Of a stretch of 64,000 nucleotides of DNA, positions 37,823-63,955 are shown piece after piece (positions within the stretch are counted from its first letter, which is position 1; each line of letters begins with the position of its first letter). A model generated the notes under the pieces. That model ran no database searches, had not been told where the DNA came from, and saw only the letters and a list, made by a program, of their open reading frames with translations. Source of the DNA: Euglena gracilis (lineage: Eukaryota); assembly GCA_039621445.1 (NCBI GenBank), contig CP154954.1, positions 22,642,954 through 22,706,953 on the forward strand, read 5' to 3'. The translations under genes were made by a program, and so were the position numbers.

Positions 37823-40800
37823 TCACGAATGCGATCGCGATGCCTCGCGATAAGAATCACGCTTCTTGGCAGGGGCACTGGGTGACCTACCCCGAAGGGC
37901 AACGTTATTCTGCTCATCGCGGACCGGGAACCGGGGGCTCATACCACCGGAACGGTAACCAGATTGCCTTGTACTGCCCGATTGGCGTGAAAACGCGGAC
38001 GAACCCGAACCCCGTGATGAGTTTGAGCCTCGCGAACTTACGATACACCCTTCGCACATCAGGATTCGGACAATCACGGACATATGTCCCGGATTATTGC
38101 ACAAAAAGCACAATTTGTCCGTGGATTGATCCGAAGAACGCGGATATCGCGTTTTCGATCCCGTGTTTGGTGAAGTGGGTGGATGCGGTGATTTTTGCAA
38201 TGCGTTCACCGAACCAGCCGGTAATCCAGCAGTTGGGTGTGCGTTAAACGCGGATTGAATCTGACCAAGAAGCTGTGATAGCTTCAACTGCTTGGAAACG
38301 TAGTTCCAGCGTTGGTCAAGAGTCATTGCATTTGTCGCCACCTCGTCACGGTGGATATCCTTGATGAGGCTAGGCGTGAAATGCATTAGAACAGCGTCAA
38401 ACTGTTCGCGCATTTGCTTTTCATTGAGTTCATCCACTTCAGCGGCAAGTCCCAACCATTTGGCATACCAAAGGTCAATGGACTTCCATTTGCGATCGGG
38501 TGGGGCGCATTGCCGCCACTTGGTCTCCAGGGTAATCCTAGCGACCAAACTTGAACTGGTGGAAGCGTATTGCTCCACCAGGTCATGCGGGTAGCGAATG
38601 ACAAGTTGTCGCGCGCGCTCCTTCTCATCCCTTGGGAGGCAATCGATGAATTCCATCTTGATCACCTCCGGGTTTGTGTCCTGGGTTGGCCCTTTCAATG
38701 CCCAGTAATACTCCCAGTCCCGGAAAAACTGTCTCCACGTGGTTGGATCACCATCCCACTGGGGTTTCACCTTGTTCGCGATTGCGATGGTGCCCTTGAA
38801 GTCTTTCTGAGGAACCCAATGACCCTCGGTGGTATTCCGTGGATTCGGGCCCGGGTACTCTCGAGCACCAAGCGTATCCTTTCCGGATTCTTGTTGGAAT
38901 CGCGAAATTTCTGGTGAAGGTGAATCCTGGTACCGGAAATCCGGTCGCAAACCCTGTTGGTCACCCGTAATAGGGGGACACTCCGGTGTGGGGGTATGTC
39001 GCGCATGCAACATGTGACCCACTCCCGGTGTACGGGTTTGGCTCATTCCACGCACAAGCATGGAATGATGGATTTCTTGGTGGAGACTTGGCGGAATCGC
39101 CGTGTTTTTCGAAAATTCGGTTCCCGTAATGCGAAATTCATCCGAAAACTGGGTTTGGGTTGTGGACAAGGCCAATGGTGGTACAATTCGCGGAATCGCG
39201 GATTGTGACACTCGGGACACGGGTGGTGGTGGTGCATGTGCACCCAGATTCGGGTTGTGGAAACGCGAATCTGGAGCATTTGGCGCATTTTCGGCAATGC
39301 ATACTGCCGAATCGCGGTGTGAAACCCGCTGTTGGTTGGACACATTATCCAAACCGACAGACAAGTCATGCACACTTTGCTCCAAATGCTCAACGAGTTG
39401 GAGTTGGCCGCAAATACGGTCAACTTCATCCTCCAAAGCGCGAATACGCTTGCGGTAACGGGAAAAGTCATCCAGATGCGGAATCCTTTCGGAAATTCCG
39501 GTGACATCTCGGACTAGTTTCCCGTGAGACTCATCCAATAATTGGAGTTGTCCCATTAATGCTTTCACAGCACTTGAGAGGATCTGCAAAGGTGGTGTCA
39601 CCTTGGTTGGTGTGTTAGTGGGTGCAACCGGTGCAGGGTCATCCGACAACGCGGTTGTGGTACCCACGGGCAAATTTCCGGGTTGTGGCTTATCCGACAA
39701 CGCGGAAATCCGCTCATCCAACCTGGTAATCTCACCTTGGGTGGATCGGGCATTCCGATTCACCGATTCCTCAAGCCGTAATAGGCTGTTGCAGAATTCC
39801 TGCAAGGTTTCCTGATTACCAGTGAGCATTTTGTCATAAAATGCCTTGAAATCAGGGTTCTCGGTAATCCGAGAACTGGAAGCTGCAGGTAAAGACTGCA
39901 TTTCCGTTACTTTGGTAGACACCGATGCATACCGGGTCTGGAGTTCCCCAATAGCAGTCTGAATACCGCTAATGTCCGGAACTCGGTGGGAAAGTGCGGA
40001 ATAGCTCTGTTGCAAACCCGCAATGGCCGAGTTAATCCCTCCAATGTCAGATTGCAACTGCAACTGCAGGGAATCCTGCCGTTGTGCCATTTCCGTCACT
40101 TTCGCGCTCAGATTGGATAATCCAACCTGATTCGCGTCACAATAGCAGGTTTTCTGCTCCAAACGGGAAAGTCGCTCCTCCAACTGCCGCACATACGTGT
40201 GGGGAGCAAAATTCTCGTTGGCTTGTGACTGGAATTGCCGAAACTTTTCCGTTTCATCGCACAACTGCATAATGCGGTGTTGCGATTCATGGAAAGTTGC
40301 GGACAAGGTGGTGAAATGGTCCATAGACACAAATCCACCATTGTGGGTTGTTGCACACGAGGAATCTCGTGCATGCAACTGTTGTTGCAAACGCAACAAC
40401 GCGGATGAACAGGACTCCATTTGTCCCGATAGGTGTTGTAGTGAGTCATGCAAGTGCAGAAACTTGGAGTCATTCCGCGTTTCCGCTTCATGCATGCATT
40501 CATTAATTTGCCGGAAGTTTTGCGGGAGTTGTTGGCACATTCTGTCAAAGGTTTCCCGAAAGGTTGCAAGGTCAATACCCGCACTTTCGAAATTCCTTTG
40601 GCAATACTTGCCAACTTCCTGCAAATAATTCCAGCAGTGTTCCAGCTTGGTGAAGACATGTTTCTGGTTGTCCTCATCAAACTGAAGCACTTTGTTCAAT
40701 GCGGTTGCCCACTCTGCAACGCATTGTTGCACATGGTTGAACTGCCTCACAAGGGGGTGATCCCCTGGAAGCCGAGCAACGATATCCTGCACATCCTCAG

Positions 40801-41397
40801 CAGTGAGGAGCTCACCAATGCTCTTCCCATGGGTTGGGATGTACCGGAGAATTCCGGCACCACGAGGCGAGTCTCCGGTTGCCAAGGTAGTGCGGGATAG
40901 TACCCAAGATCGGGTGGTGGTGGCAAAGCTCTGTAAGGGCTTGCCGGTGGAAGAGCGGGTGGGGGTTGAAAGAAACACGGCGTTTCTAGCCCACCATCAC
41001 CAGAGAAGCCCGGTGGCGGAATCACCACGGGTCTCTCTGGTGTGCGCAGCTGCACCATTGCCGCAGACAGAGGCGAATACCCCCGTTGTGGCAAGGTGAG
41101 TGCGGAAGAGGCCGCATTAGCCTCTGAAGCCGATGATGTGGAGGGCTCATCGCCGACCACTGTCAATGACGACAAGTGTTGCAATTGTGACAATTGAACC
41201 AATTTTGCCTCATCGGCGTGGGAACTGGAAGCACTTTCACATAAAAGCTTCCAATCCCCAGTTTCTTGGTCAATGTCTTGCAATGATGCCTGTAATAAGG
41301 CATAGTAGAATTGATGGTTGGGGACTGTGCTTTGCATCTTTCTGATGGCAAAAACAGCAAAAACCCACAAAACTAAGCAGTTGAGTTGTGCTGGCAC
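37823..41397 (-). CDS. Large Gag-like protein: long coiled coil, capsid-like domain, CCHC knuckle (frameshifts near 40950 and 38078)
   Basis: PQWDGDPTTWRQFFRDWEYY...FIDCLP; CFLCNNPGHMS continues RDC if one C is restored. Confidence 0.75.
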
Positions 41398-41535: not shown

Positions 41536-41692
41536 GTAGGATCGAACCAATCTGCTACCAAGTGTACTTGATAGCGTTTCTTTCTGTATGGGCTGTGTGT
41601 GTAGGATCGTGACCTAATCTGCTACCAAGTGTAAAACCTGGTAGCCTTTCTGTTTGTGAAGTGTGTATAGGATCGTAACCAATCTGCTACCA
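41536..41692 (-). promoter_or_regulatory. Three tandem primer-binding sites complementary to the tRNA-iMet 3' end
   Basis: Plus strand TAGGATCG..ACC.ATCTGCTACCA at 41536-41560, 41601-41627 and 41668-41692, each followed by AGTGTA. Confidence 0.8.
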
Positions 41693-41995
41693 AGTGTACG
41701 TCTGATCTTCCCTTTTCTCCAAAAAGCCTCGCTTTCCTTGGTGCGGACCTACTTAGGGAAGAGAAAATCAGAGTAACGAAAAACCCTTTTCCCAACTTCC
41801 CGAGAAGCAAAGCACAGAGAGAGGATGGGAAAGGATAACGGACTATAATAAGTCCGAGGCAGAAAGGGAAAATAAATAATATAAAGAATACCACCTGTGG
41901 AGAGAGAAGGGGCACCCATTAGGAGATCCTAATAGGATCTGCTTCCATCCTAACTTCCTCAACGGAAGTGGACAGAAGCATACGCCTGGTACACA
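41693..41995 (-). repeat. 5' LTR
   Basis: Homologous to 26301-26597; abuts the PBS. Confidence 0.85.
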
Positions 41996-42265: not shown

Positions 42266-42948
42266 CATGCCCTTGGCCAGTGCGATCTGCAATTCCATTC
42301 TTTTTCAGGTTGCATGATCCTCACTGGCTGGGATGATATGGAAAGCAAGGGAAATAGGACATTTTTCCAAACACACCATCCACAGAAGGTTTCTTGGTTC
42401 GGAATGGTTGCTTCACAACAAATCGCCCGTCCTGACTCATTAGGATCAGTTGAGGGCTTGTCAAACGGTGGTGGGGCGAACCGAATCCACCGACCAGTGG
42501 CACTGCCTACTGGATTTGTGTGTTCAAGTGAGAGGTGAGATATGTACAAATGGGGTGACGCCCATGGACAGTAAGAAGTGGTTTAGCGGAGGCAGCGGGG
42601 GCTTTAGTAGCCGGTGTATGAGGGTGACCAAGTGGCTGGGTGTTGGGGGTGACGGCACTCAGAAATTCATCGCTTGTCCATTCACCGCCACATCCTCCTG
42701 CATCCGACGGTTGGTTTTGGAAGGCGGGCCCTTCGTTCCCCACTCCAACACGTGCGGGTTAGGTTTTCCCGTGAGCTTGGAGAGGTTGTAAGGTAGACCT
42801 TGTGGGCACTTGGCTTGAGGTCCCTCGCGGGTTTCAGCCCCCAATCGATTGTGTGTGACTTCTTTACCTTCATGGGGGACGTCCAGAGAGGGTGTTCAGC
42901 TTTTGGTGTTTGATTTTTTGTGTTTGGTCGTGTTGCTGAGCCTCGGTG

Positions 42949-43515
42949 TTATGACGTACGGTAGGGTCTATGAGATTCCGGGGAGCTATGGTCAGCGAGC
43001 TCTTCGGGGCATTGACCCCAGACCAATTGTCGTCCGACCTCCCGGGCCAGAGTCATGCTTAATCCTTGCCAGCAGGTCCCCTCGACGCCCCTCCTCTCCC
43101 AGGCGTCGTGTTGGCCTGCCAGCAGCTTGATGCAGTTACCAACAAAGGCGAGCGCACCATCCCCCATGCCACCATAACAGTCCAAGACAAAAGGAATGAA
43201 TGTCCAGCCCCTTCTTTTGCAAGTGTCACCATACTTCCGTATTTTGTCCTCCTCTTGTGCCTCATGCCACCTGCCAATATCTTCCAAGACAGTGCGGTTT
43301 CGCGAAGGCGCAAGTGGGTGACGAACGGTGACGTCGATGGCCGCCGGGCCGTTTGCGTCATACCTCATGACGAATACGTCGCCTGGTCGTGAACCATCCG
43401 GGGCGCTTTCTTCCCTTCTGGCTGGGAAGCCTGCACGCTGCGCGAGCCCGAGGATGTGCGATTGAACGGCATTGTGCCGCCTGACAATGTTGTTTTTGTG
43501 GCAGCAAACAGCAAA
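42949..43515 (-). pseudogene. 5'-truncated CRE-like non-LTR copy (restriction-like endonuclease domain only)
   Basis: VCC...RRHNAV, RPGDV, AIDVTV, EEDKIRKY, FIPFVLDCYGGMG. Confidence 0.85.
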
Positions 43516-44166
43516 CATTAGGATACTCAGAAAGTTTTTTGATCGAGCGCTCGGCCCATCTCCAAGGCCGAAGTTCATGGCGGGTGAGATATTTACATTA
43601 AATTGTCCGCAGATGCAGTGGGGACTGTGGGAGGGGCGAGAGTCGAAGGTGAAGTAGATGAAGGGCGGTGAGGGGCACAGTACGGAGGGGAGACAGCGAG
43701 TGTGAGAGGAAAGTGTACAGCGGCCGGGAAGGTTCAACAGAAGGGAAGGGAAGGTTCAATAGAAACGGCCATGGGGACTGTTGAGTGTTGAGTGTTGAGG
43801 TTGTGGCAGCGACATGTTTAGGTTTGGGTTTAGGGGAGTTGGCGCAGGGAAGGCTCTGTTTTCAGTGCGGTTAGGGTTTGGTCGTCTTTTTAGACTTGTG
43901 GTTGGTTATGCGTACGGTTGGTGTGTCATGGAGTCTTCGACCCTGTGGTCAAATTGCTTACTCCGTCTGAAATGGGCAATGGGTGGTGGGATCCACCGTT
44001 CCAGATGGTTCCACCACTGTTCGACAAGCCAATTGACGGCCACTTCTCTTGTCAATGTGGGACACAGGTTGCTGATGACTGGGTAACGTTGTTTCCTTTA
44101 TTGACAAGGTGTGAATGGTTTAAGGACAAATGTTTGTTCTGGGTCTAGGGGTCGTAATGGTCTTCT

Positions 44167-47100
44167 TTACAGACAATACGGTTGGTGTATGGTGTTGGTT
44201 ACGTCTGGATCTGTGTCGTTGCCTGCATACCGTCCCCAGATTACTTGTCGCGCGATCTCTCGCGCAACAGTGATTGATAGAAGTTGCCATGTGTCGGCTT
44301 CAGTTTTGCGTTTTGACCATGCATCTTGTTGACCGAGAAGAAGCTTCATCAGTGTTGACATTAAGGTTAGCGCTTCTTGGCCTAAGCCGCCATAGCAGTC
44401 AACAACAAATGGAATGCAAGTCCATCCCATCCTCCCACAGTTGGCGTCATATTTTGAATGTTTTTCCTTCTCTTGGCGTTCATACCATTCAGTTAGTTCA
44501 GCTGCCTCACGCAACGGTCTGTACGGTGCTGCTGTGTGTCTCACTGTGATATCCACTGCTCCAGGACCATTGGCGTCAAGTCTGCTAATGAGCACATCGC
44601 CCGGGCGTGTTCTCTCTGGACCTCCTTGTTCTTTTTTTTGCTGTAAACCCAGCATCATGTGCTAGTTGGAACACAAAGTCCTGGATTGCACCATGTCGCC
44701 GCGTTATGCCATTTGAGCTGCAGCATACAAGGTGATTACCCAGGTTGTCCATTGGCTTGGTGCAGCGTGGGCACGTTGATCCCGTTGGTGGGCAAACTGG
44801 TGCTCCCAGTGACCACTTTAGAAATCCTTTGAATTCGGCAGAAGCAACCAATGTTTTCAATCCAGAGGATGGTGTGACAGAAGCCCAGGCCATTGCGTGG
44901 GGCCGCTGTTGGCTTGCGAAGCGGACGGCGTCTTGACCGTGAAGGTTGGAGGATAATACCTTTTGTCGTTGTTTCGCAAAGCATTCACCCCACCACTTCT
45001 GTTGAATGTGAGGGCTTTGGGCTTCGTTCAAGAGTGATACATCCGCGGCCCATGTTTGTGTTGGGGGAGTTCCTTCGAGGATGGAGTTGGCAGAGGACAG
45101 GCACTCAACAGTGTCTTTCGGTATTCCTCGGTCTGCCAGACCCAGGGTGCGTCTGCCATTGCTGACAAACGTCACAATGCCGGATATCCGTGCTGGGAGA
45201 CGTTCCCGTGATGGGTCCCGAATTCCGAGTCCGCCATGACGCACAGGTAGGGTGGCCTGAGCCCATTGATTGTCATCGATGGGGGATCCAACAATGTTGC
45301 TCATTGTGTTCCTGATTTCTTTGGTCAACAAAGCACATGCGTCATTTGCCTGCCCCAGTTCTGTTGCACGCATGAGGTCATTAACTTTGCATGCATCTAG
45401 GCAGGTTCGTAAGAGGCAGAACTGAATTTGGGCCTGCGGCAGGTTCAAAAGGGCCCGACAAGCTTTCTGCACACTTGTCGCACGTTCAGCCCACACTTCC
45501 CCCGCAAAGCCTCCGCTTTGTGGACAGCATACCGGGATTCCCAGGGCCCGTATACCAGAATCGGGGGAGTAGTTCACGATTGGGACCGCACGAAGTGGGC
45601 TGTTTTGCGGCATTTCAGCACGATTGGCTTCTGTTGCGGCAGGGCCCCACAGGCGGCATTTTTTTGCGTTGAGGTGTATGCCTAGTAGCGTCCCCTGTCG
45701 TTGAATTTCTGTAATTGCTGCATGTAATTGTGGGAGGGTTCCCAGGATGTGTCTATCATCCAAATACCACAATTGGAGTGGCACAACCTCTTGCAAGGAC
45801 TCAACGAGGGGTTGCAACGCCAAGGCGAATCCGGCTGGGCCACAAGGGTCCCCTTGTTGTACGCCAGAGGCACTCCGAAGGTGTGATGACCCACAAAAGA
45901 GCGGGCTGTGTTCGGCGTAGCAACTCTCGAACCAGACGTACACCTCCGGACAGCGTTTAGCCACTTCAGCAAGGACTGTCTTTCTTTTTACGCAATTAAA
46001 AGCATTGCTGAAATCTACCTGTAACAAAGCCCAGGTGCTGTCCTGTTGCATGTGCAGGTGATTTACTTCTTGTTGCAGTCCCATAGCAATGAGTTCACAT
46101 GCCCCCTGGACCCCTACACCGCATTGTAGTGGCTGCAGTACTTTAAGGCGGTCCCTGATTTTAGGGTGTCTCATCAAGTATTTGCCCACCAATCGACGCA
46201 GGCATTCCCCAGCTGCAATTGGTCGCGTGCCATCCTTCTTTGGGTCAGGAATGGGGTTGGCATTGCCAAGCTCATCAAGGTTTTCGCTTGGATTGCAGGG
46301 TTTTCGAAGAGGAGTCAAACGGGCACCAGCGAAAATCCATGCCACTGAGGTGTGAATTCCGTTTGTCAAACATGTTCGGATGAATTGGTCCAAAATTGTG
46401 AGGAGTTGTTCAGATTGTGTCCCCAGGGGATCAGAGAGCATGTCTTTGAGATGATCTGGGTGAGGATTCCTTCGGGAAAGACATGACTGCTTTCCGTATT
46501 TCAATTAGGCGCTCCCTGGTTCCTTCTTCACTGAGATCGAATTCGAGGCGAGGGAAGTCCGGAGGCAGATTTTGCCTTCCAGGTTGGGGTTCAGGTGGGT
46601 GCAAGGCAGCCAACCGTTCCAAGATTAGCGGGTCATCTGCATCTTGGATTCCATCAGAAGTCAGCATGCGGCAGGCTTTACTGACCGCCCCATGGCTGAC
46701 AAGGCTTTGAACACGGTTGCACAATCTTTCTTGGCTTTCTGCCTCGAAATTTTTTGTCTGACTTCGTGTTCTCTTCCTTGGGTTTTGTGCATCGCGAGTT
46801 TGGCGAGTCTCATCCCACGAATCTTCGGTGGACCGGTTGAGGTAGGCATTGGCTCTCTCAGTAATTTTCCGTCCGACTGCAGCCCAATGGCTTTTCCCGC
46901 TGCGCTTCAATGGAGCAAGCACAGCTTTTGGGAAGCACCAAAGTGCGTGTAGGGTCTCCCATCCTGGCTTGGACACAAAGCGACTGAGGGTGCTGCAAAA
47001 GGCGAGCCCTACGTTTCGCAACGCTCCCCGTGGGATATGGACCAACGTGCCTCGATTGTCTTGGGAAATTTCTTCCCAAGATGGGTGCAGTGGTGGGCAA

Positions 47101-50100
47101 GGTTGCGAAAATGGGGTGACTTGCATCGTGTCAGCGTTCGTCGAGGATTGCGCCGGTGCTGGGGCCACGGGGGCGTGCGGCCTTCGACCATTTTGGCACT
47201 CTTGCTCTTGCCCTTGTGGAAAGGACGGCACAAAATTCTCAGTCAAGCCCTGGCCCTGCGGCGCATGCCCGTGAATTTCGGAAATCGCTGAGCGCACCCG
47301 GGACTCTAGTTCGTTAATGACCATGATTCGCTCAGCTGCGGGTGTCCCGGGGCCCCCGTTCAAACTGGGAAACGGCATTACAGCCTGAGACAAAGTAGGC
47401 GAGAACAGCGGCGTCGAGTGCATTGGGAACCAAGATCCAAGGAGTGGTCGCTCCGTCGGCGGCACAGCAGAGGTCTGTGCGGCTGAGGCCATTTCAACGT
47501 CTTCCTGCTCGGGAGGGCGGGTTTCTGTTGGACCTGGGTTGCTTTCAATATCGCCACAACTGGCAAGGCTTTTACCCCTGCCACAGCGGGGGGACTGTAC
47601 CCATACCGCGGTTTTTCCTGGTCAATCAGTTGCCGTACATGGTTGGCGTGCCCTGGGGCCACATTGGACAACTTAAATTGCCCTGGGGCCAGAGTGCAAG
47701 TTGGTCGTCGGCAATGGGGCCGGGTGCTAGGTCGCAGGGATAGGGGTCCTTCACGTGGGGTTATCCGGTGAATAGGTCCCGGCTCGAGATGAACGTCACC
47801 ACAGAGTGTGACATCTTGGTGTCTGGGCCTCTCGGCTATGACAGCGTCGTTAGGGCTTATATCACCGTGTTGGTCACCTTGTTGGTAGTTTAGTTGCCTT
47901 TGTGCTGTCCGTCGTGCCCTCCGGACATGACGGTCAACTGAAACTACTGATCTTGTCGGACGTAAGAAGGCCATGATGTCCAGGATATCAACGGTGTGTG
48001 CATTCAATGGGGAGAGGTCGGACGAGGAGGGCTCCGTTGGAGGTACTCTGGGGAAAGTGCCTCTCGGCCGGAGAACGTTGGGTAGTGTCATTAGGTGAAT
48101 AGGGGGCAGGTAGAGGTGAAAGGCCTCGCCGAAGTTGCATACTTCGGACCATAAAACAGTCAGCAACCACATAATGGCATGTACACTCGATGGGGAGTCG
48201 TGACGTGGTGGTCGATGTGGCCATAGCCCTATGAGCACAAACAGAACTCCTCTCAAAACTTCCCAGCATTCGGTGAGCTCATAGACGGTAGTGTTCTCAA
48301 CCAGGACATCGGAAAGGAAGGCGTCTCGGAAACTTTGAAGTTCTGCATCCACCTCTTGAAGGCTCGCCAGCAATCTGTGCCGGATGAAGTTTTCTTGAAG
48401 TCCCCTGGAGACAGGGATTGTTGGTCTTTCCATGGTAGCCAGACGGAAGTAGATGGGTCCTGGTTGTGTTTGGACATCACCATGGGTGGTGATTCGTTCC
48501 CCCCTTCCAGTCGGCTGGTGTCCTTCTGAAAACTTTTCCCGGGTTTGTTCTGCCGTATATCCTCGGCTTGTTACGGAGTGTACTTTTGCTGTCTCAGTAG
48601 AAGGAAATACTGTGGCTGAAAAAACAGGGCAGGTTTCCCTGTGGTGCAAGCACCAACCTGCCGAGGCAGTGATGGTTTCAATGTCACACAAAGTGCATTT
48701 CAGCCAGTATGTAGCTTTGGGAAGAAGTGATTGGGAGGAGCCATCGGGGCCTTGCCGCAACGGTAGTTCGGCCTTGATCCGAAAGAAATCAGTCATGTTC
48801 ATGGCAACAAGTTGGTCCAATAAATCCATGACTTCACCACAGGGTCCATTAAATGCCGTCAGCGGGCCTGGATTGGTTTCCACATCACCCATTGTTGTCA
48901 GAGAATCACCTCGCCCCGTCTTCAGATATGCATCTTCCGGTTTCTTCCCCCCGTGCGGGCTTGCAGAGCAGGGGTGTATGTCGCCGGCTGTTTCTGCCAT
49001 GCGGGATTTTTTTGTGCCAGCACAAGAGTAATAGTCTGACAGGGAGTCATTTGAGTCATCAAGATCGCTGGCGGTCCATACAGACGGGGAAAGACGATCA
49101 GCCAATCCAACGTCACACGCAAACTGTAACGGTCTAGGCATGTCATCCATCTGCCAAATTCTTGGGCAGTATCGCCAGGCAATGGGCAGGGTTGGTTCTC
49201 GGGAGGGTGTCAGCCTCTTCTTTGTCCTCGGGGGGCAGACTGCTTCTGCTGCTGGCACTTTTTGTTTGTTTTTTTTTGCGATAGCTCGGCGTACTTTTTC
49301 TATGTGCGACGTGTCCATTCCTTCCTCACGTTGTTCCTCTGGGCGGTATTGATGAAGAATCTGGGCGATTCTGATCCGTTCCAGGATGAGGTTCTTTTTT
49401 GGTGGGGGGGGCGGTTGCACGACGTTCGGCGCTGTCAGTGGCAACGTGAGTTTCATATCTGTGTGCACCATTTTTTGTGATTGCCGAATGTCCACTGTTC
49501 TCCCAATGTCGACCCACTTTTCCTGAATGTTGGCCAGTTTTCTGGCGACCATCTCGTGAAATAAAATGCCTCCTGCTTGCTGTCTCATGCGCCTTCTCCA
49601 AAAAAATTCTTCCCTGAGGGACCGAAACTCTGGTTTTTCCCAAACTGGGACCCCTTCCAGGGGGGTGTTGGGTGGGGAAGCTTGTAAATCTGTTGCCTGG
49701 GGGGGGTCTTGCCATTGAAAGGGGGTGGGTTCCTCCTGCAGGATCACTGTGCCCAGTTTGGCCCACTGTGTGCCATCAAACATGGTGGGTTTTGTTGGAA
49801 TTTTAAAAATGCGAAAGGGTGGGCCTGGCCCCCCCCCCCCTTTTGCAGGGGGGGCTGATACTGGGGGGCTGGTGCTGAGATTTTTTGGTGTTGCATTTGG
49901 CTGGGGTTGATGATCCTCCTCTTTTGGGTTGGGGGGGGGGGGTTGTTTTGTCAACTCATTTTGATTTGGAGTTGCCTTGGGATGAAATTCTTGAACCATT
50001 TGTTTTACTGGGTGAAAGTGTTGTGTTGAGTTATCCCCTCTTTGGGGGGGACTTTGTGAGACAAAAGGGAAGGCTGCAGGCAGAAAAGCACATTGGAAGG

Positions 50101-50905
50101 CTGATGGTGATGCCAGTACCACATCTGGGATTAAGGGTGCTGGCAGGCCAGAGTTGTGTAATGGTGTTGGGAGGGGGGGGACTTGAGTACTCTGGCCTGT
50201 GCTGAGAAAGGCTCTGAGGCTTCTGAAGAGTTCAGCCTCTCTCCTTCTCTGCTCTTCTTCTCTGGTCCAATTCTTCCTATGGTCATCTTCTCTGCTCCAG
50301 TTTGATTGCAGTGGTTGCTGAGATTGCTGGGGTTCACCCCAAAGGTTGGTGTGTGATGGAATGTACATTTGTATGATTGATGTGACAGATGAACATACTT
50401 GACTTCTACCCACTGGTGGGCATTGGAATGGGCTGTTCATTGGAATACCCACTGATGGGCCTGACTGTGGAATGCCCAGTGCTGGGCTTGCTGTACAGGG
50501 GGGCCCCAGACTCACTTGCTGGTGGAGCTGGGGCTGAGGAGAACTCTGTTGAGATATATGATAACTGGGTCGACCTCTCTGCCATGGTGGCTTGTAATCT
50601 CTTCCAAACCTTCTCTGTAGGTACTCTTCGTGCTCTTCCCTCTCTTGCCAAGTCCTCTTCCTTCTCTGTGAGCTGCTGTCTTGGCTTTCTCTGTCACTAT
50701 GTACAGGGCGGTCAGCAGTGAGTCGTTGTGCCACAGCAGTGGTTAGCACCGGCACCAACAGCGGCAACAACATCTTGGCCAGCAGCTCCAACTGTCCAGT
50801 GTCCACTGCAGCAGTAGGTGTACTTGAAGGGTTGGTTGTGGTAGCAGCTTGATTGTCTTGAGTCTTGGGGTCTTCTGGAGGGCCATCCGGCCCCTTTGCA
50901 GCCAT
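44167..50905 (-). CDS. CRE-like polyprotein: Q/P-rich N-terminus, four 2A-like motifs, RT, CCHC finger, PD-(D/E)xK endonuclease (about 3 frameshifts)
   Basis: RPIAAGECLRRL, QVDFSNAFN, GVQQGDPCGP, YLDD, GGLGI, CPRC...HLVCC, RRH, RPGDV, VDIT, EKEKHSKY; ATG at 50905, 14 nt after the SL exon. Confidence 0.85.
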
Positions 50906-50919
50906 GGTGGTTATGCAGA

Positions 50920-50944
50920 CGAAAAAAAATAGACACTCAGAAAG
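50920..50944 (-). other. Euglena-type spliced-leader exon (nt 2-26)
   Basis: CTTTCTGAGTGTCTATTTTTTTTCG matches the Euglena SL exon as I recall it (ACTTTCTGAGTGTCTATTTTTTTTCG); not followed by an SL-intron GT. Confidence 0.9.
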
Positions 50945-51084
50945 GATCACCAATTTAGGTATCTCCCATAACCCGCGAATATTTCGCGGGTATTTGTGAA
51001 CACCAAAATGCGCAGGTCACCCTCCTGCGCATTAAAGTGAATACAATTAAAGTGCACGCGCATTAATTTGCAGACCGGTACCTC

Positions 51085-52358
51085 AATCGCATGTGCAATT
51101 CACCTTGCTTCGTTTTTGTTTATCTGCTTGCAAAGTGAATGACCTCTTGCGCGCCTGCAAAATCACCTCTGCAACAGCGGCATGCAAGACATTGTCGGGA
51201 ATTATTCGGGAAACATTCAGTGGCATGGTCGGCTCCCCTTGCACTCCAGAAGAATGGTTGCAAGTTTCCCTGGCCATCAGATGCGGTGGACTGGGGATCT
51301 CGGATCCACTATTTCAACGTGTGCCAGCCAGATTGTCTCAAGTGGTGGACTTCTGTCGAAGAGCTCCCTCTGTCTTGGGCCTGCCCGCTGCCCTGGACAT
51401 CCTTCCCAAAGACACTGATGATTGTTTACGGGCAGCCCTCAATGAACTTGGTCAAATAGCCCCACTGCCACAATGGGCCACTGACAAAAATTTGATCCCT
51501 CAGGCACAGTCTCCACACAATTCACAACGTTGGTGGAATCAGCAGAGCATGCTTGCCCGCCAGAAAACACTTCGGGACACATTGAATGGACCTGATGCTG
51601 TACGCTTTGCAAGCCAATGCCAACCACACGCTATGGCATGGGCCGCTTTGACACCATCTCAAGGACTCCGCACCCTGTTGCCCACGGCTGAATTCCGCTG
51701 CACACTTCGTTGGTCCCTTGGAATGACTCTCACACCAATGGAATCCGATCCCAACCTCTGTCCCAAATGCTTTGGACAATCACATTTTCTCGGACACCAC
51801 CTCGTTTGCTGCAAATCAAACTTCATCACCCGGCGGCACGGGGCGGTACAAGATTTTCTGACAACCACAACACAGAAGGCAGGATTTACCGCCCGTAAAG
51901 AACAACGAGCTGATGACCGTTCCCGGCCTGGGGATATCTTCATTCCTCGCTTGGACAGTGATGGACCCGTTGCAGTGGATGTGACAATCCGCCACACCCT
52001 TGCGCAAAGTCATCCGCTGCGAAGTGCAGAGAGCCTTTCACAATGGCAAACACGTCAAGAGGCCGAAAAGCATGCCAAATATGATACAACATGCCAACGA
52101 CTGGGCTGGCGGTTGACGCCATTCGTCATGGATTGCTATGGGGGCATGGGACAAGAAGCGCGCTCCTTGATGGCCACCCTCCTCAAGGCCCTTCTGGGGC
52201 AGCGGGAAGGGTGGCAGCGGCGGGCCGCAGAAGCAGACATTTGGCAAGGCCTGTCCTTCACACTTATCAGAGAAATCAGCAGACAGCTCGTTTGGAGCTT
52301 GTATTCTTCCAAAGATGAGATCACCCTGTCTTCTGCCCACTCACCCTATTCTGTCTGA
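51085..52358 (+). pseudogene. 5'-truncated CRE-like copy (RT thumb plus REL), head-to-head with the full-length copy
   Basis: QFTLLRFCLSACKVNDL, GGLGI, CPKC...HLVCC, RRH, RPGDI, VDVT, EAEKHAKY, PFVMDCYGGMG; open 421-aa frame. Confidence 0.88.
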
Positions 52359-59150: not shown

Positions 59151-60549
59151 GACGCAGCAGCCCTCCCTGCCCCGAGGGGGCAGCCGTCTGCCGAACAAGC
59201 ACAGAAGATGAAACAAGAAAAAGCCAGAAATCTACGTGGGGGCAAGGGGAAATACAGGTGAAAGGGAGGGGGTGAAGGAATATACAAAAAAAATACCAAA
59301 TAGACAAAACGGGACTGCAAGATGGAGGTTCGGGGGCAGAACGAAGAAACCAGGAAAAGCACAACGTAAGAGGAAGTCCAGGGAGGCCCCTGAAAAAAAC
59401 AGACAGAGCGAGGTGGTGCACTCAAGGAGTCAAACAGAGCACAGAGCTAACGTCAATCAGTTACAACAGCAGGGGTGCAGCCACGAAAAACGCGTAAAAG
59501 CACGGAAAAGAATGGAGAGGCAGAGAAGAGCAGCTACAAGGAGAGGAAGCCCGTAAACAACGTGAAGAAACGACAGACAAAAAAGCCGCATGATCACGAA
59601 TTGGTGAAAGTAAAAGGAGCGAGACAAGGGCGGCCCCAAAAAATCACTATGGGATGGGAGCGACATGAAACGAGCCGAAGAAAGGAGGGGTCGGCATGAA
59701 AAAGAGAAAGGAAGGCTAAGGACAAAGAGAAGCTGTGAAAACAGGGAGGTGGAAGCAAGGCATTCGAAACAGAGAGGGCTCCCCGGTGGAGTAAATAAAA
59801 AATGGAGTAACAGCAGAACAGCCTGACAAGAGGCACACTACAAAACAAAGGTGTGGTGGACAGGCATAAAGAATAGGAAAGAGCATCGGCTCTGAGGAAA
59901 GGTGGAAAGGAGACCTTTGCTGCCAGTACCCAAAGAGTAACAAATGAGGCGAGGCGAGCAAGCTGATAGTAGAAGGAAAGGTAAAGAGGGAGGGTAAAAA
60001 ACGAGTTGAAGTTGTGCGAAATGAAGGCATTAACGGCTGAAGGGAGAGCGTAGGCCGGTCCTAAAGCAACAGTGCCTTGGGCCGGGCTGGGGGATGGTTT
60101 GATCGGAGAAAGAGGAAGCTTTATAACGAACGGAATGGCCTGGTTTCTGTTTGGCCACGCAGACACACACACTGAGTAGGAGGGGGTGGATCTGGCATGA
60201 AAGAAGCGAAAGCCCATTGAACACAGGAAGGGACGGTGAGGATAGAACACTCGAACTCGTCACATAGAGGTCTACGTGGACCTGTTAAACGAACATACAA
60301 CACGGGTCTTAACTCGCCCCATTGTGTTATTCTGTTTTCCGCGCTTTCCAATAATCGTGCACCCCACACACACAATACCACCCTTTCTTGATGGGAGAAG
60401 AACCATAACCTGGCATCAGGCATCATTCACGTTTTTACTCGCCAGGCCCACCCCCCACTTTTCCCGTTATTGTGCCACCGCTGAACACTCACCCCCCCAG
60501 CGCGTGGACCTCCTTAATGGCCCCCGTCCTCTAAAAAAGCCCCCCTGAA

Positions 60550-61900
60550 TGCAAGAGAGTCCAATGAATAACCCCTTGATGCATGCTGCATCACCCAACA
60601 AATAACGGGAGTGAAGAAGGGGGCTGGGAGGATGGATCGGATACGGTCGTAGGCCCGCCAAGGGTTACAAGCCAACACTGTGAGGTCCAAAATAGCCAGG
60701 GTCATGCCAGGGGTCGGTCTGCTGCGGAATCGGGGACCATGCCACTTATGCATGTACCAGGAACGAAGTAAGGTGGTGACGCCTGTCAAGGGTCTGGTAG
60801 CCCACAAGGCGTGCCCACAAATGACGTCAATACGTTTGGGGAAGACGGGGGAGTGGGAAATGAGAATATGGCGTGCGATGAGATTCTGGAGGGTGGCCTG
60901 GGTGTTAGCGATGGTGCGGGCTTTGAGGTCAAAAACTTTTCCAACCCATGTGATGCTCTGTGTGGGTTGGAGAGTGGATTTCTGTGAGATGATCAGTTGT
61001 TGTCCACGGAGGAAAGCGCAGAACCATTGGGTCACAATTTGGGTGAACTGTTCGCCGACACACAAAAGGAGTATGTCGTCGTAGTAAACAAAGATCCAGA
61101 ATGTGCAATGTGGGCGGTCACGAAAGGGGGCGGCCTGTATTCCTTGATGTAATAGGTCCTCCAGAGAGCGTTGGGCTAAGACGGGGCTTAAGTTCCAGCC
61201 AAACGGTGGGGAGTCAAAGGCGAACCCTGTGGTCCGGAACAGGTTGCGGGCATGGTCGGGCAAGCGTAAGCTCCAGAAGAAGTTTGTTAAATCCAGCGTG
61301 GTCCCCCACAAAACCTCCGGTGGGTGTGAGGCCAAAATGCGGGCAATGGAGCGTGTGGTGGGTAACGCGAAATGGGGTATGGGTTGTGGGCTGAGTGTGT
61401 TGATTCCCCGCAAGTCGGCGATGAAGGCGGCTTTTTCCGCAGATTTTGGTCGCAAGAAGACCGAGAGGTTATCAGCGGAGCACCCGTCAGCAGGGGATAC
61501 AGGGTGTAGGAAACCATCGCGGACCAAGGCATTGAGGAGAGTTCGGGTGACAGGTCCGGGCGGGCGGGCGGTTGGAATTTCCCCTTTGGGGTAAAAGCGG
61601 CTATCTGTTGCGGCAGGCCCGTTGGAATGACGGAATCCCAAATGTGTCGTGGTATGGGGTAACACCCGCGAAAGCCGAGGCCCTTTTCCGCCACGTGGTG
61701 AGTTACAAGAGCTGGAGTGTGTTCGAAAGGGTAGTACTTAATCAGTAGGAGCAACAGCCAGGTGGTGAGATGTAGGCGAAAAAGGAGGGAGAGGAAGAAG
61801 TGCAGCGTAATGTCTATACATTGGGTTTGCCGGCGTTGGAAGAAGGCGTGCATGAGGAGGGTCAAGGAGTTGAAAATCTGGGTTCGGGTGAGAGGGTGGG
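60550..61900 (-). pseudogene. Reverse transcriptase plus start of RNase H (frameshifted, truncated by a CAG-type MITE end at ~60547)
   Basis: FLRPK...FIADLRGIN, LDLTNFFWS, PFGWNLSP, YYDD, WVGK. Confidence 0.85.
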
Positions 61901-63264: not shown

Positions 63265-63955
63265 CCTTGGCCACGTAAAATTTTCTCCCCTCCAGATAGG
63301 CGAACTTAGTCATGCCTCTACAAGTGCGTTCCTCGACCACCTGGCCACCCTTTCTGAGTACGTCGTCGGCGGTGAAGGGGGCAGGAGGATGAAATGTGGA
63401 GCGGGGGCGGTTTGGTGCGGAGTTTGTCGGCGGTGTACGAGTAGACGCACTGTCCTGGGAGAAACCACCGAAACGTTCTTTGTTGCGGAAGTAGGCGCGA
63501 ATCATGGTGTTCCAAAGAGGTATGAGGTGGGATGTCTTGTCTTCAGATATATCCGAAAAGGCGTTATGGAAAGCCGAGGCCATCTCGCGCATCCAGATGG
63601 CAGTGTCTTGCAGGTCACGGAAGCGCTGAGCACCCTCCACGGTGGGGTTGTCGCAGAACCACTCCTCCGTGATTGGGGGGGACAAGTTGCGTTCCAGCTT
63701 CAGCTTGGCCAGCTCAGTGCGGAGGGCGAGCAACTCCGAGTTTTGTGGGCGAGCTTCCCAAACAAAGTTATTGTGTTGGTGTAGGAGGGTGGATTCGGTG
63801 TACAGTTCATAGGCGCAGCACTTCATCAAAAAGTCGGGGATGTCCGGGCTCAAACCAGTGCTCACAAGTAATTGGGCAACCCAATCTGAAGGCCACTTTG
63901 AGGATCTGCTTTTAAGGTTAACGACAGCCCGGGCAAGTTGGACGGAATCGGCCAC
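63161..63955 (-). CDS. Gag-like ORF with C-terminal zinc knuckle (may start outside window)
   Basis: CFRCQVPHWHWDC; overlaps the YR ORF. Confidence 0.7.
   Translation of the reverse strand: MADSVQLARAVVNLKSRSSKWPSDWVAQLLVSTGLSPDIPDFLMKCCAYELYTESTLLHQHNNFVWEARPQNSELLALRTELAKLKLERNLSPPITEEWFCDNPTVEGAQRFRDLQDTAIWMREMASAFHNAFSDISEDKTSHLIPLWNTMIRAYFRNKERFGGFSQDSASTRTPPTNSAPNRPRSTFHPPAPFTADDVLRKGGQVVEERTCRGMTKFAYLEGRKFYVAKDGPLWDVSFPPPKPCFRCQVPHWHWDCPAEQHKY

What the first reader, a model, noticed from the sequence alone, without database searches (positions are those of the whole stretch)
43525..50944. CRE-like retrotransposon carries the spliced leader at its 5' end and abuts SL sequence at its 3' end
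Seen: SL exon nt 2-26 ends exactly at the exon boundary, 14 nt before the ATG, with no SL intron. The 3' A-tail is joined to ACTTTCTGAGT (SL nt 1-11, 43535-43525), followed by a second truncated copy. Known: SLACS, CZAR and CRE1 of trypanosomatids insert site-specifically in SL RNA genes. Inference: the element is copied from a trans-spliced mRNA and also targets the SL exon start. Each full-length insertion would then recreate its own target, building head-to-tail arrays away from the SL gene cluster. Alternatively the SL exon is a TSD from insertion into an orphan SL gene.
Basis: partly seen in the sequence, partly recalled or inferred. Interest (0 to 1): 0.85.

Follow-up and report, generated by a model that had tools for sequence, protein, structure and literature searches.

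The report
Spliced-leader-tagged retrotransposon at spliced-leader sites
A dead 7.4-kb jumping gene in a Euglena-type genome starts with the cell's spliced-leader tag, which shows it was copied from a processed messenger RNA, and it sits with a relative at fragments of that same tag, which suggests that this family aims at the tag sequence.

Summary
Window 50944-50920 (minus strand) is nt 2-26 of the Euglena gracilis spliced leader (SL). It stops at the exon end, has no SL intron, and lies 14 nt before the ATG. The 3' A6 run is followed by SL nt 2-11 (43534-43525), then by a 5'-truncated relative, copy B.

Element A is a defective non-LTR retrotransposon. It has a reverse transcriptase (RT) followed by a CCHC motif and a restriction-like endonuclease (RLE). 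The modelled C-terminus of sister copy C matches only R2 proteins at E <= 0.001. Upstream lies a long polyprotein with four 2A-like motifs.

The best reading is that A was reverse-transcribed from a trans-spliced mRNA and integrated at an SL-derived site. Three further events in the window touch SL nt 11/12 or the SL start. That is the position used by kinetoplastid SLACS and CZAR.

One database relative (P0198) also reads through SL nt 3-26 just before its start codon.

Not shown:
- whether the 10-nt SL repeat is a target-site duplication;
- membership of the CRE clade.

A third copy, C, has no SL fragment at its 3' side.

Verdict: a new variant of a known kind, moderately to highly interesting.

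The parts
50920..50944 (-). DNA-encoded SL exon nt 2-26 at the 5' end of element A, with no SL intron
50906..50919 (-). 14-nt 5' UTR between the SL and the ATG (50905-50903)
47529..50905 (-). Upstream polyprotein region with no Pfam family. It carries 2A-like motifs at 48889-48863 (GDVETNPGP), 48481-48455 (GDVQTQPGP), 47800-47774 (GDVHLEPGP) and 47555-47529 (GDIESNPGP, reached only after a frame break near 47600). A C-x2-C...H...C finger lies between the first two motifs.
45647..46243 (-). Reverse transcriptase core (Pfam RVT_1, E 1.4e-13). Just upstream, near 46440-46500, a deletion of about 20 nt removes the conserved AGPSGLR stretch and breaks the frame.
44422..44773 (-). CCHC motif (44773-44720), RRH (44701-44693), PGD (44604-44596), VDIT (44556-44545), K..KY (44463-44449) and R.GW (44433-44422): the restriction-like endonuclease. 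Its frame is broken in an A8 run near 44640.
43541..44169 (-). Stop codon (44169-44167) and the 3' UTR of about 626 nt, ending ...GCTCGATC
43535..43540 (-). A6 tail of element A (the last A could be SL nt 1)
43525..43534 (-). SL nt 2-11 directly after the tail: the half-site shared by the A insertion and the B-D insertion
43516..43524 (-). ATCCTAATG, left copy of a 9-nt direct repeat. It starts on the first base after SL nt 11.
42666..43515 (-). Copy B: a 5'-truncated relative that starts inside the CCHC motif. Its stop codon is at 42951-42949 and its 3' UTR of about 280 nt ends ...GCGATGAA.
42656..42665 (-). SL nt 3-12 directly after the 3' end of B (11 of 12 matches to nt 1-12)
42447..42655 (-). 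Segment D: 209 nt of unknown origin that follows SL nt 12. It is read as the flank of B's donor locus, carried along with B (3' transduction).
42438..42446 (-). ATCCTAATG, right copy of the 9-nt direct repeat
50945..51050 (-). 5' flank of A (segment E), ending ...GGTGATC. It holds a strong hairpin (z -3.8). Its identity is unknown, and it has no significant similarity to the elements' 3' UTRs.
51051..52358 (+). Copy C: an inverted, 5'-truncated relative with an intact RT C-terminus + CCHC + RLE (P0005). No SL-like 10-mer lies within 1 kb 3' of its stop codon.

Best explanation
Element A (50944 to 43535, minus strand) is a defective full-length copy of a euglenid non-LTR retrotransposon of the RLE-bearing (R2-group) kind. 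Its layout is SL, a 14-nt UTR, a multi-2A polyprotein, RT, CCHC, RLE, a 3' UTR of about 626 nt, and A6.

Shown: the SL identity, the exact exon boundary without an intron, the RT and RLE domains, and the SL fragments at the junctions.

Inferred mechanism:
1. The element's pre-mRNA was trans-spliced, so the RNA template carried the 26-nt SL. Target-primed reverse transcription copied it almost to the cap, losing nt 1.
2. The family's endonuclease recognises the 5' part of SL DNA and cuts around nt 11/12 and near the SL start. New copies therefore end next to SL nt 1-3, and truncated copies begin after nt 11 or 12.
3. Each event leaves an SL nt 1-11 half-site that can be hit again, and each full-length copy brings a whole new SL. 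Copies therefore pile up head to tail away from SL RNA genes.

In this window the empty site before A arrived reads E...GATC | CTTTCTGAGT | ATCCTAATG.... Copy B, together with 209 nt of its donor flank, had been inserted with a 9-nt duplication that starts right after SL nt 11.
For: SL identity and boundary:
- The 25-mer equals E. gracilis SL nt 2-26.
- 9 of 9 SL gene copies continue with a GTAT intron, whereas here a 14-nt UTR and the ATG follow.

SL-headed copies elsewhere:
- Homolog P0198 (1751 aa, RT + RLE, 27% identical to copy C over 425 residues, E 2e-45) begins MTGRRRK-FLSVYFFS-M. FLSVYFFS is the exact translation of SL nt 3-26.
- A 988-bp contig, L002, holds SL nt 1-26 followed by non-intron sequence and an ORF.

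SL at junctions:
- A6 is followed by SL nt 2-11.
- The 3' end of B is followed by SL nt 3-12, 283 nt after its stop codon and in the same sense. My estimate for a chance 10-mer there is about 0.002.
- The 9-nt repeat ATCCTAATG starts at offset 0 after SL nt 11 and recurs once, 1078 nt downstream, bracketing B + SL(3-12) + D.
- Segment D begins after SL nt 12.

Enzyme:
- Pfam RVT_1.
- Invariant or near-invariant CCHC, RH, PxD, D and K in 55 aligned sequences.
- K..KY and R.GW motifs as described for R2.
- A structure model with pLDDT 92.6 whose 7 hits at E <= 0.001 are all R2 proteins.

Literature:
- CZAR and SLACS insert between nt 11 and 12 of the miniexon (PMC5814959, passage).
- CRE and NeSL elements target spliced leaders, and CRE elements make target duplications (PMC3636483, passages).
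Against: - Only one window was available, so no genome-wide junction table exists.
- Copy C, 1 of the 3 copies in the window, has no SL-like 10-mer (2 mismatches or fewer) within 1 kb 3' of its stop codon.
- The two events at this half-site do not share one simple cut geometry. The B-D duplication puts the first-strand nick after nt 11. A target-duplication reading of A puts the first-strand nick before nt 2 and the second-strand nick after nt 11.
- The 10-nt SL repeat of A cannot be separated from A's own RNA-borne SL. It could be a 10-bp duplication, no duplication, or a read-through 3' extension.
- Segments D and E show no significant similarity to the elements' 3' UTRs, so the 'array' beyond A and B is not shown.
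- An SL-headed copy has CG rather than AG before its UTR and no AG between the SL and the ATG. It is unclear how such a copy would itself give the same spliced RNA.
- A is dead: it has a deletion of about 20 nt and two further frame breaks.
- P0198 is known only as a protein. Whether its contig is DNA or RNA is not on record.
Confidence: 0.6

Rival explanations
1. The element is an SL-tagged retrocopy, but its endonuclease has no SL specificity. The SL pieces at the joints would come from events between SL-headed copies. Examples are head-to-tail copies followed by deletions that start in the SL, recombination or gene conversion at the shared SL, and template switching during reverse transcription.
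For: Copy C has no SL at its 3' side. B and D moved as one unit, so at least one SL joint was inherited and not made here. The cut geometry of the two local events differs.
Against: Four break points fall at SL nt 11| (two), nt 12| (one) and the SL start (two 3' ends). Independent deletions or switches would not be expected to share these positions. The same 11/12 position is used by SLACS and CZAR.
Confidence: 0.15
2. The 5' SL is inherited as DNA and is not added anew in each cycle. An ancestor was trans-spliced once, and since then copies are transcribed from upstream through the encoded SL. The SL is then simply the first 25 nt of the element.
For: SL-headed copies lack an AG acceptor at the SL/UTR joint, so they cannot be re-spliced at that site. 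In SLACS, transcription is said to start at +1 of the interrupted SL gene (recalled, not read here).
Against: No promoter is known here. P0198 and L002 show the SL joined to quite different downstream sequences, with a UTR of 0 nt and 91 nt. This fits repeated trans-splicing of different RNAs.
Confidence: 0.12
3. A was inserted into an orphan SL RNA gene, and the SL sequences are a target duplication of that gene.
For: SL sequence lies on both sides of A. CRE elements live in SL genes and make duplications.
Against: - No intron (GTAT...) follows either SL piece, against 9 of 9 true SL gene copies.
- SL nt 12-26 occurs only once in the window, at the 5' end of A.
- The upstream flank GGTGATC lacks nt 1 and differs from the TAC|A or TTA|CA flanks of all 9 gene copies.
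- Rfam finds no RNA gene in the window.
Confidence: 0.05
4. The junctions are due to chance or to an assembly artefact.
For: The window is rich in homopolymers, and two of A's frame breaks lie in homopolymer runs, which may be sequencing errors. One unrelated exact 10-mer exists at 63350.
Against: A given 10-mer directly after the tail has a chance of about 1e-6. The 25-mer was found in 0 of 100 shuffles. A second junction, at B, shows SL as well.
Confidence: 0.03

Closest known systems
CRE clade of trypanosomatids (SLACS, CZAR, CRE1, CRE2)
   Same: Both are non-LTR elements with RT followed by an RLE and with a poly-A end. They are tied to the spliced leader, with break points at SL nt 11/12, and target duplication is plausible.
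   Different: - This element is not in an SL RNA gene array but at SL fragments among other repeats.
- It carries the whole SL exon (nt 2-26) at its 5' end.
- The SL sequences of the two groups are unrelated.
- It has a multi-2A polyprotein upstream of the RT.
- RT kinship to CRE was not tested, and no trypanosomatid-named protein is among the 240 listed homologs.
NeSL-1 of Caenorhabditis
   Same: It is an RLE-type non-LTR element that targets spliced-leader exons.
   Different: NeSL elements are reported to cause target-site deletions, whereas here short direct repeats are seen. Kinship was not tested.
R2 elements (Bombyx, birds, turtle)
   Same: They share the fold of the thumb, linker, CCHC and RLE part. 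The top 7 Foldseek hits have E 1.5e-8 to 4.6e-6 and TMq 0.51-0.60. The RH, PD..D, K..KY and R.GW-like motifs are shared.
   Different: Sequence similarity is marginal: RT against R2 gives E 0.21. R2 targets 28S rDNA and has no 2A motifs and no SL.
Dinoflagellate retrogenes with DNA-encoded spliced-leader relics
   Same: A DNA-encoded SL at the 5' end marks copying from a trans-spliced mRNA (abstract PMC6050394 in the listing; passage PMC3942190).
   Different: There the tag marks host retrogenes and is not reported as an integration target. Here the tagged RNA is the retrotransposon's own, and SL fragments also mark the insertion sites.
L1Tc and ingi 2A-bearing non-LTR elements, and L1 3' transduction
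   Same: The 2A motif D(V/I)ExNPGP lies within a retrotransposon ORF (for L1Tc). Downstream flank is carried along, as in L1 3' transduction (recalled).
   Different: L1Tc is an APE-type element with one 2A motif. Here there are four motifs in an RLE-type element.

Membership tests
RLE-bearing (R2-group) non-LTR retrotransposons | Reverse transcriptase domain | tested here: met
   Pfam RVT_1, E 1.4e-13, 51.5 bits against a cut-off of 29.6. The YLDD and FSNAFN motifs are present.
RLE-bearing (R2-group) non-LTR retrotransposons | CCHC motif and a PD-(D/E)XK-type endonuclease downstream of the RT | tested here: met
   C237, C240, H250, C254, R262, H263, P293, D295, D310 and K340 are invariant or at least 90% conserved in 55 sequences. 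K..KY and R.GW are present. The model (pLDDT 92.6) hits only R2 proteins at E <= 0.001, 7 of 7. The model is of sister copy C; copy A carries the same motifs but has a frame break.
RLE-bearing (R2-group) non-LTR retrotransposons | No terminal repeats; the 3' end carries an A-run | tested here: met
   blastn of the element against the window finds only the element itself. The A6 run lies at 43540-43535.
CRE clade (SLACS, CZAR, CRE1, CRE2) | Inserted at the same relative position (between nt 11 and 12) of SL RNA genes | tested here: inconclusive
   Break points lie after SL nt 11 (the SL half-site flanking B, and the start of the 9-nt repeat) and after nt 12 (segment D). These are SL fragments, not SL RNA genes, and no intron is present.
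CRE clade (SLACS, CZAR, CRE1, CRE2) | RT groups with CRE in a phylogeny | not tested
   No CRE reference sequence could be fetched. None of the 240 listed homologs carries a trypanosomatid name, but most carry no name at all.
CRE clade (SLACS, CZAR, CRE1, CRE2) | Target-site duplication | tested here: inconclusive
   The 10-nt SL repeat around A is confounded with A's own SL. A clean 9-nt repeat flanks B-D.
SL-tagged retrocopies (copies of trans-spliced mRNA) | DNA-encoded SL exon that ends at the exon boundary, joined to the mRNA 5' UTR, without the SL intron | tested here: met
SL-tagged retrocopies (copies of trans-spliced mRNA) | The source RNA is trans-spliced in vivo | not testable with these tools
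The run listing alone is no evidence.
2A-bearing retrotransposon polyproteins | D(V/I)ExNPGP motif in frame in the ORF | tested here: met
   A has two canonical motifs (GDVETNPGP, GDIESNPGP) and two degenerate ones. 26 of the 120 longer homologs carry 1-4 such motifs. Ribosome skipping itself was not tested.

The most novel reading that the evidence does not exclude
A retrotransposon family uses the host's trans-splicing to renew its own target. Every full-length copy is born with a fresh spliced leader at its head, and every insertion leaves another SL nt 1-11 half-site. The family can therefore leave the SL gene arrays and build head-to-tail nests anywhere. The shared nt 11/12 break point with kinetoplastid SLACS and CZAR, on an unrelated SL sequence, would then point to one of two things: an SL-parasitising lineage older than the split of euglenids and kinetoplastids, or recognition of a position or structure rather than a sequence.
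Probability: 0.3. Interest if true: 0.85.

Novelty: new variant of a known kind. Interest (0 to 1): 0.65.

Why it matters
SL-targeting RLE retrotransposons are known from trypanosomatids and nematodes, where they are confined to SL RNA genes. Here a euglenid element combines two things that are usually seen apart: the SL as a tag of its own processed RNA, and the SL as the place where copies integrate.

If this holds genome-wide, it would:
- explain how a site-specific element can escape its gene-array niche;
- give a built-in marker for full-length retrotransposition events in Euglena;
- allow a direct test of how an RLE enzyme picks the nt 11/12 position on two unrelated SL sequences;
- bear on how the very large, repeat-rich Euglena genome grew.

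Four full-text searches found no paper describing SL-linked retrotransposons in Euglena. The library lacks most subscription journals and Repbase.

Tried and rejected
- Own genome: none is held.
No junction support or RNA evidence was obtained. The run listing shows about 14 DNA-like runs holding 0.37-0.47 of the sampled words and some RNA-like runs holding 0.05-0.20.
- Collection scans with a 21-nt SL pattern:
  - viral contigs: 0 hits;
  - genome contigs: 2 hits, one a chance cyanobacterial match and one useful (L002);
  - metagenomes: only true SL genes.
- Copy C protein against viral contigs and against the MAG that holds L002: nothing.
- Earlier findings of the scan: nothing.
- Similarity among the 3' UTRs of A, B and C and segments D, E and G: none is significant. 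The best pairs were A-D, where 9 of 200 shuffles reached the score, and B-C, 6 of 200. My idea that D and E are 3' ends of further copies, all ending in GATC, is therefore unsupported.
- RNA folds of the four 3' ends: only E stands out (z -3.8).
- Other SL-like sites have no link to RT copies and are taken as chance or as unresolvable. They are 22780+, 38803+, 63350+, 14101-, 14319- and the T-rich 59306-.
- Rfam: no RNA family in the window.
- Pfam on the three upstream polyprotein segments of A: no family.
- ESM Atlas on the RT: only unnamed RVT_1 clusters of animals.
- Cluster look-up: no names or accessions for the best homologs.
- Search with the first 60 residues of P0198: only P0198 itself.
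- Teng et al. 1995 (PMC307132) is not held.
- Supplements were not consulted.
Full report
**Observation**

On the minus strand, 50944-50920 reads CTTTCTGAGTGTCTATTTTTTTTCG. This is the only match in the window with up to 3 mismatches, and none of 100 shuffles gave a match. PMC6242988 prints the E. gracilis spliced leader (SL) as a 26-mer whose nt 2-26 are this string (passage read). A primer in PMC5654406 agrees (passage).

The base before the 25-mer is C, so SL nt 1 is missing. Fourteen bases later, ATG (50905) opens a frame of about 1190 codons.

To fix the exon boundary I scanned public collections with a 21-nt SL pattern. Eight metagenome loci, holding 9 SL copies, are true SL RNA genes. 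In 9 of 9 copies the exon is followed by GTAT.... In the window the exon is followed by the UTR, so the SL intron is absent and the exon ends exactly where splicing would end it.

At the other end, the 3' UTR closes with ...GCTCGATC, then A6 (43540-43535), then CTTTCTGAGT (43534-43525, SL nt 2-11), then ATCC....

**What the element is**

Element A runs from 50944 to 43535.

- Pfam finds RVT_1 in it (E 1.4e-13).
- Downstream of the RT lie a CCHC motif, RRH, PGD, VDIT, K..KY and R.GW. PMC4838377 describes these motifs for the R2 restriction-like endonuclease (RLE) (passages).
- In an alignment of 55 relatives these positions are invariant or at least 90% conserved.
- Sister copy C has this part intact. 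Its AlphaFold model has pLDDT 92.6.
- In the PDB, the model's 7 matches at E <= 0.001 are all R2 proteins, with E 1.5e-8 to 4.6e-6.
- By sequence, R2 is barely detectable (E 0.21).

A therefore belongs to the RLE-bearing, R2-group kind of non-LTR retrotransposon.

Whether it belongs to the CRE clade was not tested, because I could not fetch CRE references. The named ones come from Asteraceae, a moth, a barnacle, a tardigrade and a red alga. The closest hits, at 49-50% identity, are unnamed contigs.

Upstream of the RT lies a long region with no Pfam family. It carries four 2A-like motifs, two canonical and two degenerate.

A is dead. A deletion of about 20 nt removes the conserved AGPSGLR stretch before the RT and breaks the frame. 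There are two more frame breaks, near 47600 and in an A8 run near 44640. These two could be sequencing errors in homopolymers.

**Other copies in the window**

Protein-level searches find only two further copies.

- Copy B lies directly downstream of A in the same orientation. It starts inside the CCHC motif and is about 49% identical to A.
- Copy C (51051-52358) lies on the plus strand and is also 5'-truncated.

No copy is similar to A at the DNA level.

**SL at other joints**

Copy B's ORF stops at 42949. After 283 nt its UTR ends ...GCGATGAA and is followed by TTTCTGAGTG (42665-42656, SL nt 3-12; 11 of 12 matches to nt 1-12), then by unrelated sequence, segment D. I estimate the chance of an SL 10-mer in that sense within a few hundred bases of B's stop codon at about 0.002.

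The 9-mer ATCCTAATG begins on the first base after SL nt 11 (43524-43516). It recurs once, 1078 nt downstream (42446-42438). The two copies bracket B + SL(3-12) + D.

I read this as a target duplication of a single insertion. In this reading B was mobilised together with 209 nt of its donor flank (3' transduction). The donor locus already had B's 3' end lying against an SL fragment, and the new insertion was nicked exactly after SL nt 11 of the local half-site.

The site before A arrived can be rebuilt as ...GGTGATC | CTTTCTGAGT | ATCCTAATG.... A sits in or at the edge of the same 10-nt SL fragment.

Together the window records the following:

- two 3' ends lying against the SL start (A, and B in its donor locus);
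- two foreign sequences that begin after nt 11 or nt 12;
- one duplication that starts after nt 11.

CZAR and SLACS insert between nt 11 and 12 of the trypanosome miniexon (PMC5814959, passage). CRE and NeSL elements target spliced leaders, and CRE elements make duplications (PMC3636483, passages).

**Evidence outside the window**

Homolog P0198 (1751 aa, on a 5915-bp contig) has RT, CCHC and RLE. It is 27% identical to copy C over 425 residues (E 2e-45) and carries one 2A motif. Its called protein begins MTGRRRK FLSVYFFS M....

FLSVYFFS is the exact translation of SL nt 3-26. A second, distant family member thus has the SL directly before its start codon, with at least 21 nt of other sequence upstream. 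I could not see its DNA. Among the 240 listed homologs it is the only one with an SL peptide, and most called ORFs would not read through an SL in any case.

L002 is a 988-bp high-coverage contig in a bacterial MAG. It holds SL nt 1-26 followed by non-intron sequence, and an ORF 91 nt later. It shows no similarity to the element. It is one more SL-tagged retrocopy, of unknown parent.

**Mechanism**

Shown:

- the SL identity;
- the exon-exact boundary;
- the enzyme domains;
- the positions of the joints.

Inferred:

- The element's RNA was trans-spliced and then copied by target-primed reverse transcription almost to the cap.
- The RLE recognises SL DNA and cuts near nt 11/12 and near the SL start.
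- Each event leaves a reusable nt 1-11 half-site, and each full-length copy brings a whole SL.

Open points:

- Because A begins with the SL, the 10-nt repeat can be read in three ways: as a 10-bp duplication with a microhomology join, as no duplication at all, or as a read-through 3' extension of the RNA that paired with the nicked target.
- The B-D event puts the first-strand nick after nt 11. A duplication reading of A puts the second-strand nick there. One fixed geometry does not fit both events.
- SL-headed copies have CG, not AG, before the UTR, so they cannot be re-spliced at the same site. SL-less source copies, or splicing at the AG of SL nt 9-10, would be needed.

**Against the reading**

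- Copy C shows no SL-like 10-mer (2 mismatches or fewer) within 1 kb of its stop codon.
- Segments D and E show no significant similarity to the elements' UTRs, so a longer array is not shown.

**Rivals**

- SL joints made by recombination, deletion or template switching between SL-headed copies, without enzyme specificity: 0.15.
- A DNA-inherited SL that is not renewed in each cycle: 0.12.
- Insertion into an orphan SL gene: 0.05. This is disfavoured by the missing intron, the single copy of nt 12-26 in the window, and the different upstream flank.
- Chance or assembly artefact: 0.03.

**Novelty**

SL-targeting RLE elements and SL-tagged retrocopies are each known. Two things appear to be new: their combination in one element, in a euglenid and outside SL gene arrays, and the nt 11/12 break point occurring on an SL sequence unrelated to the trypanosome one.

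Four full-text searches found no description of this in Euglena. The library lacks most subscription journals and Repbase. I rate the finding a new variant of a known kind, with interest 0.65.

Noticed in passing
window 48889-48863, 48481-48455, 47800-47774, 47555-47529 (minus strand): There are four 2A-like motifs in the ORF upstream of the RT, two canonical (..NPGP) and two degenerate (..QPGP, ..EPGP). They would cut the product into about five proteins. Among database relatives, 26 of the 120 longer hits carry 1-4 canonical motifs.
   Followed up: partly
homologs P0184, P0185, P0186, P0203 (not in the window): Close relatives carry a histone-hairpin-binding (SLBP) RNA-binding domain between 2A sites (up to 72.7 bits). 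They also carry a short Dam-like adenine-methyltransferase stretch with a WANPPF motif. That stretch is above the Pfam cut-off only in P0203 (29.0 against 28.1 bits). Element A shows neither.
   Followed up: partly
window about 48700-48620 (minus strand); P0184, P0185, P0187: A C-x2-C-x12-13-H-x3-4-C finger lies in the small segment between 2A sites. It is seen by eye in A and in 3 of the 3 relatives I looked at. It may be the nucleic-acid-binding part.
   Followed up: no
window about 42240-42040 (minus strand): A degenerate fragment resembles translation elongation factor 1-alpha domain II (by eye, from recalled motifs; not tested). It has a short GT...AG insert and a frame break, and lies about 200 nt downstream of the right 9-nt repeat.
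   Followed up: no
window 41537-41715: A tandem repeat of 66 nt, 2.7 copies, 71% matches. Its origin is unknown.
   Followed up: no
window 60517-61737 (minus strand): A second, unrelated reverse transcriptase ORF (Pfam RVT_1, E 1.1e-11). It was not hit by the relatives of element A, which shows that the window is a nest of several retroelement kinds.
   Followed up: no
window 37826-40996 (minus strand): A 1057-codon open frame with no clear family. The only match is a sub-threshold one to NPV_P10 (27.8 against 29.8 bits).
   Followed up: no
L002 1-988: A 988-bp high-coverage contig binned into a bacterial MAG carries the full euglenid SL followed by an ORF. It is most likely a euglenid contaminant and an SL-tagged retrocopy.
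   Followed up: partly
window 50945-51024 (minus strand): The flank just upstream of A's SL folds into a 9-bp perfect hairpin. The fold has z -3.8, and 0 of 200 shuffles fold as well. Its meaning is unknown.
   Followed up: partly
window 14331-14093 (minus strand): Two SL-like pieces lie 220 nt apart on one strand: nt 1-13 with one mismatch at 14331, and nt 2-10 after an A-rich run at 14101. No element coding sequence is nearby. They may be old relics or chance.
   Followed up: partly
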